Part shown: one piece after another, positions 15,001 through 18,000 of the stretch
Layout: every line of letters starts with the position of its first letter
Position numbering within the stretch: the stretch's first letter is position 1
Assembly: GCF_000007145.1 (NCBI RefSeq)
Contig: NC_003902.1
Coordinates: 1,387,436 to 1,419,435, forward strand
Direction of reading: 5' to 3'
Origin: Xanthomonas campestris pv. campestris str. ATCC 33913
GTDB taxonomy: Bacteria; Pseudomonadota; Gammaproteobacteria; Xanthomonadales; Xanthomonadaceae
Length of the DNA: 32,000 nt
Made by a program: the position numbers

Positions 15001-18000
15001 GGCTGCCCGCATCAAGGAAGATCTGGCTGCCGCTGCGCAGGCCAAGGCTGCTCGCCAGGCTGCTGCCAAGGCTGAGTAAGTCACATTGGCGGGCTTGTCC
15101 CGCCACTGCCAAACAGCCGCCTTCGGGCGGCTGTTTGCGTTTCGGCGTTTGGCTGCCTGCAAGGCGGTAAGCAATGCGATGGCAATGACCGTTGTGGCGT
15201 GCCGGTTTGTTGTCGAGTCGTAGCGAGGCTTTCGTACGCGAGGTAGTGCGGCGGGTTGGTTCGACATTGCAGCGCAACTGTCGATGCATTGATGCAGTTA
15301 GAGCACACGATGCATTTGCTGTCGGGCGGTAGCGATGTTGCCGCAGGCGCTCGGCAGTGCGGCACGTGTGATTGATCGCTGCAGCGCGCAGTTGGCAACG
15401 CATCGATGCAATCAGAGCACGCGACGCGTTTGCTGTCGGGTGGTAGCGATGCCGCAGCAGGGTTGGGCAGTGCAGCGAGTCTGGTTCAACAGTGCGGCTC
15501 AGCTGTCCTTGCGCTGATGCACACGCTCGTTTCGTGTCGAGTGGTAGCTATGCGTGTCGCACGCGCTGTGCAGTGGACGGGTAGTCCAACGTTGCAGCGC
15601 AACTGTCGTTGCATCGATGCAGTTAGGGCACGCGATGCGGTTTCTGTCGGACAGTAGCGATACTGGCGCAGACGCTGGTCGGTGCACTGCATGTGGTTCA
15701 ACCCTGCAGCGCAGCTGTCGTTGCACCGATGCATTCAACACGCGCGACGTGTCACGCATTCTTCCCAGCGTGAGTCGCTCTGAGTCTTCGCCCTGCTGCG
15801 GGCGCAAGCTTGCGTAGTGCGTGACTGCGTCATTGGTGGCAGCGCACGCGTCGTGCGGTCGGCGCTAGTGTGCAGTGCTGCCAAGTCGTCTCGTCGCACA
15901 CATGTGCAGACTGAGCAGGTGACCGAATGACAGGTGGCAGGATCCGCTGGCGTGATGCGCGCGTCGTCTTTCGGCATTTAGCCATCTTTTACGGAGCAGC
16001 GCCGTCCGTCATTTGCTGCGCCGGTGCCGGCTGTGTTGCCACGTGCGGCCATCGCGGTTTTTTTGCGCACGTTGCCGTTGGCGTTTCATTGCGTCGGTCA
16101 CGGCGGTACAGCACTTCGCGCATCGCATTGCATTGCTCGATCGGTCTGCAACGCATCGTAAGCAGCAACTTCGCTAAACGATCAGCGCGGCTGCGCTGCA
16201 GGCGGCTCGGTCAGTGGGGCGGGGTCGGCAATCGGGGCGGCCGGGTGGGCCGGCACTTCCGCTGCCGATGCCAGTTCGGAGGGATGCGCCGGTGTTGCCA
16301 GCATGCGGGCCTTGCGCCAGCCACCCCAGCGGTAGTACGCCAGCGACAGCAGCATCGAGCAGGCCGAGCTGATCGGAAAGCTCCACCACACCGCGTCCGC
16401 GCCCAGGTGCGGCAGCAGCAGGTTGGCCAGCGGCACGCGGACGCCCCACAGCGCGAACGCCAGGATCAGCAGTGGCGGGATCACCGCGCCGGTGGCACGC
16501 ACTACGCCGGAAACCACGAAGGTCACGCCGAACAGCAGGAACGACCAGATCGAAATGTGATTGAGGTGGCGCGCGATCTCCAGCGCCGGGCTGTCGCTGG
16601 GCAGGAACAATGCCAGCGTCCAGCGGTCGAACAGGATCAGCGGTGCGATGAGCAGGCCGGTCATCAGGAAATTGGCGGCCACACCGGTGCGTGCGGTGGC
16701 ATCCACGCGCGCCCACAGGCCGGCGCCGACATTCTGCGCGGCCATCGTCGAGCAGGCCGCGCCGAGCGCCATCGCCGGCATCTGCACGTAGTTCCACAGT
16801 TGCAGGGCTGCGCCATAGGCGGCAGCGGTATCGGTGCCGAAGCCGTTGACCAGCGTCAGCATCGCGATCATGGCCAGCGAGATCAGCACCATCTGCAATC
16901 CCATCGGCACGCCTTTGCCCACCAGCGCACGCAGGATGGCGGGATCGATGCGGAACAGCGCCAGGTCGCGCCGTCCCAGCCACAGCACGTGGCCACGGCT
17001 GCGCAGATACAGCAGCAGCCCCGCCAGCGCCACCGACTGCGCCAGCACCGTGGCCCAGGCCGCGCCGGCGATGCCTAGCTGCGGAAAGGGGCCAACGCCG
17101 AAGATCAGCAGCGGGTTGAACACGATGTCCAGCACCACCGAGAGCAGCAGGAAGCGAAACGGCGTGCGTGCATCGCCGGTGCCGCGCAGGGCCGCCGACA
17201 GGAACGCGAACAGGTAGATGGTGGGCATGGCCACGAAGATCACCCGCAGGTAATCCTCGGCCAGCGCCAGCGAGGCCGGTGGCGTGCCCATCGCGGCAAG
17301 CAGGTGTGGCGCCAGCCACCAGCCGGCGACGGCGATCAGTGCCGACAACCCGCCAAAGAACGTGGCGCTGGTGCCCATGACCTTGCGTGCCTGGGCGATG
17401 TCGCGCGCGCCCATGGCTTGGCCTATCAGAATGGTGGCGGCCATGCCGATGCCGAATACCGAGCCGATCAGAAAGAACATGATGCTGTTGGCGTTGGCCG
17501 CCGCAGTGAGCGCGGCTTCGCCGAGATAGCGGCCGATCCAGATCGCATTGATCGAGCCGTTGAGCGACTGGGCGATGTTGCCTGCCAGGATCGGCAACGC
17601 GAACAGCAGCAGGTTCTTGCCGATCGGTCCCTCGGTCAATACGGCGGATTTAGGCATCGCAGGCCAGCCATGTACGGAAGCTGCGCACACTAGCATTGCG
17701 GGTGTGCGGCATGCATGCGCGGCGGCGGCGCGTTTCGGTTCGGAGGAAATACGCGCTGAAAGTTGGTGTGGCTCCGGCTGAGCTGCGACGGCTGTGCGTG
17801 CCCACCGGGATCGGCGCAGTGCCTGCGGGCACGACGGTGACTACCGGAGTTTTTCTCGAAGGCTTGGCAGAGCCGGTCCAGGATTGCTGACACCTGTGCG
17901 CGGCGGCGGTTGGCGTGAACGCACCAGGCGTGCCGCAGCGACTTTAATTGCGGGCTTTCGGTGCACTGGGGGCGTTGCAAGTACTGCGTGCGCGCGCCCG

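What the first reader, a model, noticed from the sequence alone, without database searches (positions are those of the whole stretch)
15203..15755. About five degenerate 100-113-bp tandem repeats with palindromic cores in a 1.1-kb gene-free gap after rplS
rplS and its terminator (ending 15142) converge on the MATE gene stop (16182) across 1.1 kb with no credible ORF, which is unusually long for this compact genome. Half of the gap is an array with core recurrences at 15269, 15381, 15494, 15594 and 15706. Each unit carries GCAAC-TGTC-GTTGC and TGCATCGATGCA-type dyads, perfect at 15400-15409 and 15610-15621 and degenerate elsewhere, followed by a conserved GCTGTCGG.GGTAGCGATG segment. Unit lengths differ by non-multiples of 3 and the reading frames are not conserved. 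The array is therefore not protein-coding. There are no unique spacers, so it is not CRISPR. The ~112-bp spacing puts the dyads roughly a whole number of helical turns apart, which would suit phased binding of a dimeric DNA-binding protein. Alternatively the units may be repeated structured RNAs or a decayed MITE-like array.
Basis: seen in the sequence. Interest (0 to 1): 0.6.

Follow-up and report, generated by a model that had tools for sequence, protein, structure and literature searches.

The report
Copy-number-variable intergenic minisatellite in Xanthomonas campestris
The repeats are real, but they are an ordinary non-coding minisatellite: a ~110-bp unit present in 1, 2, 4 or 5 tandem copies in different Xanthomonas campestris strains and absent from other species, with no sign that it encodes an RNA, a protein or a binding array.

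Summary
Window 15205-15751 holds four full units of 100-113 bp plus a half unit at each end, which is five unit-lengths. Units are 64-77% identical, and pairwise alignment scores are far above shuffled controls. The window comes from Xanthomonas campestris.

In 20 other X. campestris copies of this locus, the rplS-MATE spacer is about 667, 775, 988 or 1101 bp long. The differences are in-register whole-unit deletions or fusions, giving 1, 2, 4 or 5 copies from at least four separate events. Five other Xanthomonas species have a 222-441 bp spacer that shares only the rplS terminator.

A unit pattern found no relative in 185,579 species genomes, in metagenomes or in viral contigs. BLAST of the gap against plasmids and phages found nothing.

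Other readings have little support:
- Unit folds are no more stable than shuffles, and consensus structure on the + strand is marginal (z about -2, SCI 0.46).
- There is no Rfam hit, no promoter or terminator per unit, and no Pfam hit.
- A published small-RNA screen of Xcc 8004 called no transcript over the array.
- The dyads are not helically phased, and only one half-site is invariant.
- The spacer flank diverges as fast as synonymous sites.

Verdict: a polymorphic minisatellite, probably neutral, and a possible strain-typing marker.

The parts
14672..15079 (+). rplS (ribosomal protein L19), last gene of rpsP-rimM-trmD-rplS
   Evidence: ORF list. The orthologous gene is called with Pfam Ribosomal_L19 in related loci.
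15105..15143 (.). rplS intrinsic terminator. A perfect 12-bp stem (15110-15121 / 15126-15137) flanked by an A-run and a T-run, so it may be bidirectional. It is the only part of the gap shared with other Xanthomonas species.
   Evidence: Inverted repeat I5. BLASTN of the gap against L001-L004 matches only its first 63 nt.
15205..15267 (.). B0: diverged 3' half of a unit (profile positions 47-108). It forms the left edge of the array and is present in all alleles.
   Evidence: nhmmer; alignment of alleles.
15268..15379 (.). Unit U1 (about 111 bp)
15380..15492 (.). Unit U2 (113 bp)
15493..15592 (.). Unit U3 (100 bp). It carries a 10-nt internal deletion and is the most diverged unit.
15593..15704 (.). 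Unit U4 (112 bp). It carries both perfect dyads and is the unit kept in one class of 2-copy alleles.
15705..15751 (.). A5: 5' half of a unit (profile positions 1-47). It forms the right edge of the array and is present in all alleles.
15752..16181 (.). Non-repeated right part of the gap. It is present in all X. campestris and absent from other species. It occurs as two haplotype classes 7-11% apart and has no conserved ORF.
16044..16066 (+). Weak terminator-like hairpin plus a T7 run on the + strand. Significance is unknown.
   Evidence: 2 sites found against 1.3 expected in shuffles
16182..17657 (-). MATE family efflux transporter, convergent with rplS
   Evidence: about 100% identical to the X. 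campestris MATE protein, Pfam PF01554

Best explanation
**What it is (shown).** This is a locus-specific, species-specific minisatellite (VNTR). A ~110-bp stretch of the non-coding spacer between the convergent rplS and MATE genes was duplicated head to tail in the X. campestris lineage, up to at least five copies.

**History (inferred).** The copies then drifted apart to 64-77% identity, so the array is old relative to the diversification of the species.

**Copy-number change.** It is shown that copy number has changed by in-register loss or fusion of whole units. It is inferred that the mechanism is slipped-strand mispairing or unequal recombination at short blocks that the units still share, such as GGTAGCGATG and TGCAGCGCA. 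This gives today's alleles of 1, 2, 4 and 5 copies, some with hybrid or mosaic units.

**Function (inferred).** The array most likely has no sequence-specific function. It persists because it lies between two 3' ends, where length changes disturb neither promoters nor reading frames.
For: **Tandem structure.** There are no spacers between units, and the two half units at the edges together make one unit.

**Length classes.** In 21 X. campestris sequences the spacer falls into four classes: 665-669, 772-778, 982-990 and 1101-1102 bp.

**Whole-unit differences.** The multiple alignment shows that the classes differ by whole units in register. The 4-copy alleles carry a U1/U2 fusion whose crossover lies inside the shared GGTAGCGATG block. 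The 2-copy alleles keep either a pure U4 or a mosaic U1/U4-like unit. The 1-copy alleles join B0 directly to A5. This amounts to at least four independent events.

**Species restriction.** X. euvesicatoria, X. arboricola, X. fragariae, X. translucens and X. cucurbitae have 222-441 bp spacers with no repeats, and they share only the rplS terminator.

**No constraint.** The non-repeated flank differs by 7-11% between haplotype classes, against 3-6% at four-fold sites of the adjacent MATE gene.

**No coding, RNA or mobile-element signal.**

**Precedent.** Intergenic minisatellites with 165- and 173-bp units (1-4 copies), and 100- and 140-bp units inside annotated hypothetical genes (3-10 copies), are documented in X. 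citri and vary stepwise (PMC4045669).
Against: - Some blocks inside the unit are more conserved than the rest. Invariant columns cluster mildly (P about 0.02-0.04), though this is partly an effect of the U3 deletion.
- The + strand consensus fold is marginally better than column-shuffled alignments: z -2.0 with 9 of 300 shuffles as good, and z -1.9 with 8 of 200. A few pairs change on both sides.
- U3 and U4 are nearly identical between strains whose right flank differs by about 10%. Recombination is the simpler explanation, but selection is not excluded.
- Neutrality is inferred from the absence of signals, not demonstrated.
Confidence: 0.78

Rival explanations
1. The array is transcribed on the + strand (the rplS sense) into a non-coding RNA made of repeated hairpin modules, for example a sponge or scaffold for an RNA-binding protein. 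Copy number would tune its capacity.
For: - The RNAalifold consensus on the + strand has 91.6% of cells paired, against 19-53% when partners are slid, and 8 pairs change on both sides.
- The column-shuffle z is about -2 on the + strand only.
- The + strand is G+U rich.
- A weak T7 terminator-like site lies downstream at 16044-16066.
Against: - Single-unit fold z-scores range from -1.3 to +1.95 on the + strand, and the whole array gives -0.25.
- SCI is only 0.46-0.47. The consensus changes when 9 units are used, and the third hairpin disappears. It is broken at 3 of 11 pairs in the L035 unit (read from the sequence).
- The structure was derived from the same 4 independent units it was tested on.
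- No promoter-like site was found and there is no Rfam match.
- GGA motifs are depleted, 2 against about 11 expected, so it is not Csr/Rsm-like.
- The Xcc 8004 screen of 50-500 nt RNAs called only a 44-nt RNA next to the rplS terminator and nothing over the array (PMC7694677).
- Strains with a single copy, and species with none, are viable pathogens.
Confidence: 0.07
2. The units are repeated operator-like sites for a dimeric DNA-binding protein (dyads TGCATCGATGCA and GCAAC-N4-GTTGC). They would form a nucleoprotein array that affects neighbouring genes or traps a regulator.
For: The dyads recur once per unit and occur nowhere else in the 32-kb window (4 matches against 0.21 expected). GATGCA is invariant in all five units.
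Against: - Spacing is 114/111/100/112 bp, or 10.9/10.6/9.5/10.7 turns, so the sites are not in phase.
- Only one half of the dyad is conserved, and the dyad is perfect in a single unit.
- The array lies between two 3' ends, far from any promoter.
- No second copy of the motif lies near any promoter in the window.
- Copy number varies from 1 to 5 within the species, and the motif is absent from sister species.
Confidence: 0.04
3. The array is part of a long MATE 3' untranslated or read-through region. Its - strand RNA is C-rich and G-poor, like a Rho-utilisation zone. It would serve as a termination buffer between the convergent MATE and rplS transcripts.
For: - No intrinsic terminator-like site lies on the - strand downstream of the MATE stop before the symmetric rplS hairpin.
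- The C/G ratio of the - strand RNA is 1.2-1.8 across 15180-15679, against about 0.9-1.0 next to the MATE stop.
Against: - Other Xanthomonas species manage with a 222-441 bp spacer, and X. campestris strains with one unit.
- The compositional bias is simply that of one unit repeated.
- There are no transcript-end data.
Confidence: 0.08
4. The array is a decayed array of a mobile miniature element (MITE, REP or BIME-like) or a remnant of a phage or plasmid insertion.
For: The roughly 850 bp between the rplS terminator and the MATE stop, which includes the array, is specific to X. campestris. The units contain short palindromes.
Against: - No other copy exists in the window.
- The unit pattern gave only single chance-like hits in unrelated taxa among 185,579 species genomes and metagenomes, and none in viral contigs.
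- BLASTN of the gap found no match in 72,556 plasmids or 50,697 phages.
- There are no terminal inverted repeats or target duplications.
Confidence: 0.02

Closest known systems
Xanthomonas minisatellite VNTR loci used for MLVA typing (for example X. citri pv. citri MLVA-31: Xcc0912 173 bp, Xcc1317 165 bp, Xcc1662 100 bp, Xcc1806 140 bp)
   Same: Large (100-170 bp) tandem units, in that scheme either intergenic (165 and 173 bp) or inside annotated hypothetical genes (100 and 140 bp). There are few copies (1-10), stepwise whole-unit variation between strains, and no assigned function (PMC4045669).
   Different: It is a different species, locus and sequence. The units here are much more diverged from each other (64-77%), so Tandem Repeats Finder, the tool used to mine such loci, does not report it. 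I found no MLVA scheme for X. campestris that lists it.
MIRU-VNTR of Mycobacterium tuberculosis and the ~100-130 bp 'ms' VNTRs of Pseudomonas aeruginosa (from my own knowledge)
   Same: Intergenic tandem units of roughly 50-130 bp, with copy number polymorphic between strains.
   Different: MIRUs are one sequence family dispersed over some 40 loci, and some carry small overlapping ORFs. This unit occurs at a single locus only.
CRISPR arrays
   Same: Regularly recurring short palindromic cores in a non-coding region.
   Different: There are no unique spacers. The whole ~110-bp period is repeated, and the repeats are degenerate rather than near-identical.
Tandem small-RNA gene arrays (for example LhrC1-4 of Listeria, PrrF1/2 of Pseudomonas; from my own knowledge)
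   Same: Period of about 100 nt and head-to-tail copies in an intergenic region.
   Different: Those have a promoter and a terminator per unit and a conserved fold. Here neither was found, and no transcript was called in Xcc 8004.

Membership tests
Bacterial minisatellite / VNTR | Head-to-tail copies of a unit of at least 10 bp, with no unique sequence between copies | tested here: met
   Units abut directly. There are four full units and two complementary half units across 15205-15751.
Bacterial minisatellite / VNTR | Copy number differs between strains in whole-unit steps | tested here: met
   Spacers are 665-669, 772-778, 982-990 and 1101-1102 bp in 21 X. campestris sequences, with in-register unit indels in the alignment.
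Bacterial minisatellite / VNTR | Similarity of the copies exceeds chance | tested here: met
   Pairwise local scores are z 6-35 above dinucleotide shuffles, 2.7 for U3-U4. The 76-nt block is 80-83% identical.
CRISPR array | Near-identical short repeats separated by unique spacers of similar length | tested here: not met
   The whole period aligns between units, so there are no unique spacers. Units are only 64-77% identical.
MITE / REP / BIME-type dispersed repeat | Many copies dispersed through the genome and in related genomes | tested here: not met
   There is no other copy in the window or in flanks of 31 loci. The pattern scan of 185,579 species genomes gave 12 single hits in unrelated taxa and none in Xanthomonas. 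Metagenome hits are unrelated. Caveat: the pattern is strict, and no complete X. campestris genome could be searched by similarity.
MITE / REP / BIME-type dispersed repeat | Terminal inverted repeats and target-site duplication | tested here: not met
   The inverted-repeat list for the gap shows no terminal pair bounding a unit or the array.
Structured non-coding RNA family (repeated modules) | Fold more stable than shuffled sequence, and a consensus structure supported by covariation | tested here: inconclusive
   Unit z-scores range from -1.5 to +1.95. The + strand consensus has z about -2 and SCI 0.46-0.47 and is unstable between unit sets. Pair counts look good, but the structure was derived from the same four units.
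Structured non-coding RNA family (repeated modules) | Match to a described RNA family | tested here: not met
   Rfam 15 at E up to 10 gives only sub-threshold chance hits, such as JUMPstart at 17.7 bits against a cut-off of 35.
Structured non-coding RNA family (repeated modules) | Detected transcript | tested here: not met
   Table S3 of PMC7694677 (Xcc 8004, 50-500 nt RNAs, MMX medium) lists only TT451/SRC411 between XC3039 and XC3040. It is 44 nt with RPKM 36. By my coordinate mapping it lies at about window 15133-15177, before the array. This covers one condition, the size window excludes RNAs over 500 nt, and the mapping is inferred.
Csr/Rsm-type protein-sponge RNA | Many GGA / ANGGA motifs, typically in hairpin loops | tested here: not met
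   There are 2 GGA on each strand against 8-11 expected, and 0-1 ANGGA.
Iteron / phased operator array | Repeated binding sites at helically phased spacing next to an origin or promoter | tested here: not met
   Spacings are 10.9, 10.6, 9.5 and 10.7 turns. The array lies between two convergent 3' ends.
Iteron / phased operator array | A protein that binds the repeat | not testable with these tools
   This needs EMSA, pull-down or ChIP.
Protein-coding repeat | Conserved reading frame, and a gene called in relatives | tested here: not met
   Unit lengths of about 111/113/100/112 are not multiples of 3. No gene is called in the gap in any locus. ORFs have no Pfam match. The ORFs disappear in short alleles.

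The most novel reading that the evidence does not exclude
The array may not be neutral. It could be a copy-number-tunable regulatory module private to X. campestris. One possibility is a G/U-rich + strand RNA built of repeated hairpin modules. Another is a C-rich Rho-loading zone on the MATE transcript. In either case, gain and loss of units (1 to 5) would adjust expression of the efflux pump or of the ribosomal operon between lineages and pathovars.
Probability: 0.07. Interest if true: 0.5.

Novelty: new member of a known kind. Interest (0 to 1): 0.2.

Why it matters
Practically, this is a ready-made typing marker for X. campestris. It can be scored on a gel in ~110-bp steps. All raphani and incanae sequences sampled have one copy, while campestris strains have 1, 2, 4 or 5.

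It also illustrates that an old, diverged minisatellite escapes Tandem Repeats Finder and so escapes standard VNTR mining.

Biologically, it shows how non-coding DNA parked between convergent genes can expand, drift, and be trimmed by in-register deletions. It does not open a new mechanistic question unless the array proves to be transcribed or bound.

Tried and rejected
- **Tandem Repeats Finder** found nothing at the locus because the units are too diverged.
- **Rfam** at a permissive threshold gave only chance hits.
- **Promoter and terminator scan** found no promoter-like site and nothing per unit.
- **BLASTN** of the gap against plasmids and phages gave no match.
- **IUPAC pattern scans** of species genomes, viral contigs and metagenomes returned only single, unrelated hits. 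Nine metagenome hits turned out to be one conserved soil-bacterial sequence that fits the pattern by chance. One flaw is that the pattern needs a complete unit (A half then B half), so 1-copy alleles cannot match. That is probably why even the X. campestris representative genome was not returned.
- **RNA folding** of units and of the whole array on both strands gave no significant stability.
- **RNAalifold with column shuffles** was marginal on the + strand and showed nothing on the - strand.
- **Test for clustering of invariant columns** was only weakly significant.
- **Pfam** on seven ORFs of the gap found nothing.
- **Literature searches** for an X. campestris MLVA scheme, or an sRNA downstream of rplS, found none.
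- **Locus tag.** The tag XC3040 = rplS had to be inferred. I estimated the region from katG = XC_RS15295. A first guess of tags found nothing. I then confirmed the assignment from the spacing of TT452-TT455 in Table S3 of PMC7694677 against window coordinates.
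Full report
**Where we are.** The MATE protein encoded at 16182-17657 (-) is about 100% identical to the MATE transporter of Xanthomonas campestris. The window is therefore X. campestris. 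The rpsP-rimM-trmD-rplS operon runs on the + strand. rplS ends at 15079 and is followed by a perfect 12-bp-stem hairpin (15110-15121 / 15126-15137) and a T-run. The MATE gene converges from the right and stops at 16182. The gap is 1102 bp.

- The repeat finder reports a 26-nt core in five copies at 15204, 15313, 15427, 15528 and 15638, spaced 109/114/101/110 bp. It also reports a 76-nt block shared by three units at 80-83% identity.
- A profile built from the units, searched against the window and all fetched loci, matches only inside the array. It finds a 3' half unit at 15205-15263, four full units at 15268-15378, 15381-15491, 15493-15591 and 15593-15703, and a 5' half unit at 15705-15751.
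- Global identity between full units is 64-77%. Local alignment scores exceed dinucleotide shuffles by z = 6-35 for five of six pairs.
- Tandem Repeats Finder does not report the array.

**The decisive result is comparative.** I fetched the orthologous locus through the MATE protein.
- Five other species have spacers of only 222-441 bp: X. euvesicatoria, X. arboricola, X. fragariae, X. translucens and X. cucurbitae. These spacers contain no repeats. They share only the first 63 nt of the gap, which is the rplS terminator.
- Twenty further X. campestris sequences (pathovars campestris, raphani, incanae and unnamed) all have the X. campestris-specific spacer, in four length classes: 665-669, 772-778, 982-990 and 1101-1102 bp.
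- The alignment shows that the classes differ by whole units removed in register.
- The alleles are as follows:
  - The 5-copy alleles (window, L013, L014) have B0-U1-U2-U3-U4-A5.
  - The 4-copy alleles (L008, L011, L037) have U1 and U2 fused, with the crossover inside the shared block GGTAGCGATG.
  - One 2-copy class (L007, L010, L012) keeps an intact U4.
  - A second 2-copy class (L032, L033, L035, L036) keeps a mosaic U1/U4-like unit.
  - The 1-copy alleles join B0 directly to A5. These are L005, L006 and L009, all raphani sequences (L015-L017) and all incanae sequences (L018-L019).
- That is at least four separate in-register events.
- Units in the long alleles differ from each other by 23-36%, whereas orthologous units differ little between strains. 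The array is therefore old, and the short alleles are most simply explained as deletions. This is an inference.

This pattern is the definition of a minisatellite or VNTR.

**Is anything else encoded?**

*Protein: no.* Unit lengths are not multiples of three. No gene is called in the gap in any locus. The ORFs have no Pfam match. They vanish or shift in other alleles.

*Described RNA family: no.* Rfam gave nothing.

*Structured RNA: unconvincing.*
- Unit folds have z-scores from -1.5 to +1.95 on either strand. The whole array scores -0.25 on the + strand and -1.8 on the - strand.
- RNAalifold proposes three helices on the + strand with 91.6% of cells paired and eight pairs changed on both sides. 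That structure was optimised on the same four independent units.
- Against column-shuffled alignments the consensus energy is only marginal: z -2.0 with 9 of 300 shuffles as good, and SCI 0.47.
- With nine unit variants the consensus changes shape, with z -1.9 and SCI 0.46.
- One natural variant, L035, breaks 3 of 11 pairs of the best helix without compensation (sequence).
- The - strand shows nothing.
- GGA motifs are depleted, which excludes a Csr/Rsm-type sponge.
- No promoter-like site was found, and no terminator per unit.

*Published transcript data.* Tang et al. 2020 (PMC7694677) sequenced 50-500 nt RNAs of Xcc 8004 in MMX medium and called 676 transcripts. I mapped their coordinates onto the window using TT452 to TT455. 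These fit rplS, the rimM/rpsP junction, the inside of rpsP and the rpsP start only if coordinate 3640864 corresponds to window 15079. That makes XC3040 = rplS. The only transcript called between XC3039 and XC3040 is TT451/SRC411. It is 44 nt, the shortest in their set, with RPKM 36, and it is absent from their Northern-blot table (Table S6). It falls at about window 15133-15177, just after the rplS terminator and before the array. Nothing is called over the array. There are three caveats: the mapping is my inference, only one growth condition was tested, and RNAs longer than 500 nt were excluded.

**DNA-binding array?**
- The invariant GATGCA recurs at 114, 111, 100 and 112 bp, which is 10.9, 10.6, 9.5 and 10.7 helical turns. 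The sites are not phased.
- Only the right half of the TGCATCGATGCA dyad is invariant. The left half differs in nearly every unit.
- The array lies between two 3' ends, and the motifs do not recur near any promoter in the window.
- Binding itself cannot be tested here.

**Mobile element?**
- There are no other copies in the window.
- A unit-spanning IUPAC pattern gave 12 single hits in unrelated taxa among 185,579 species genomes (about what chance predicts by my estimate) and none in any Xanthomonas.
- The same pattern gave no hits in viral contigs. It gave 24 single unrelated hits in metagenomes, none with profile similarity better than E = 0.001 and none in tandem.
- BLASTN of the gap against plasmids and phages found nothing.

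**Constraint.** Between the two haplotype classes of the spacer, the non-repeated right flank differs by 7-11%. Four-fold degenerate sites of the adjacent MATE gene differ by 3-6%. The spacer therefore evolves at least as fast as synonymous sites. This argues against a conserved non-coding function in the gap as a whole. U3 and U4 are near-identical between strains with different right flanks, which I read as a recombination breakpoint near A5 rather than selection.

**Comparison with what is known.** Large-unit minisatellites are documented in Xanthomonas. The X. citri MLVA-31 scheme includes intergenic loci with 165- and 173-bp units and loci with 100- and 140-bp units inside annotated hypothetical genes. 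Those four loci have 1-10 copies. Across the scheme as a whole variation is mostly by single-unit steps and is attributed to replication slippage (PMC4045669; PMC10174486). The present locus meets all defining features of that class. It fails the defining features of CRISPR, dispersed MITE/REP families, tandem sRNA gene arrays, Csr/Rsm sponges and phased operator arrays. What distinguishes it is the high divergence between units and its restriction to one species and one locus. I found no X. campestris typing scheme that uses it.

**Verdict.** The best explanation is a polymorphic, probably neutral minisatellite maintained between convergent genes (confidence about 0.78). It is a new member of a known kind. 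Interest is low, apart from its use as a typing marker.

Noticed in passing
window 13736-13768 (rimM-trmD spacer): There is a short heptanucleotide repeat (TCCCGAT-like, about 4.6 copies by TRF). The window's rimM-trmD spacer is 64 nt, against 58 nt in 19 other X. campestris loci and 66 nt (with a different sequence) in L037. It looks like a second small length-variable repeat in the same operon.
   Followed up: partly
window 15752-16181 and the same stretch in L005-L037: The non-repeated right part of the spacer exists as two haplotype classes 7-11% apart. These do not track the MATE gene's own divergence (3-6% at four-fold sites) or the array copy number. This implies recombination breakpoints in or next to the array.
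   Followed up: partly
window 15105-15143: The rplS terminator is a perfect palindrome flanked by an A-run on one side and a T-run on the other, so it could terminate both convergent transcripts. It is the only part of the gap conserved in the four other Xanthomonas species compared by BLASTN (L001-L004).
   Followed up: partly
window about 15133-15177 (by my coordinate mapping from Xcc 8004): The 44-nt small-RNA candidate SRC411/TT451 of PMC7694677 is the shortest in that screen. Its coordinates are misprinted in the table as 3240766-3040810. It appears to lie immediately after the rplS terminator and may be a terminator read-through fragment.
   Followed up: partly
window 16044-16066 (+): A weak hairpin followed by a run of seven T, conserved in most X. 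campestris alleles (six T in some). No gene or known RNA lies upstream of it.
   Followed up: no
window 13646-15403 (-): A 585-aa ORF runs antisense through trmD and rplS and ends inside the array. It is a typical spurious long ORF of high-GC DNA, and it could mislead gene callers into covering part of the array.
   Followed up: no
window 8561-8614 and 25266-25297: TRF reports an imperfect (GGT)18 run and a perfect 16-bp direct duplication (AAATCTGGCGGTCGAT x2). Neither was examined.
   Followed up: no
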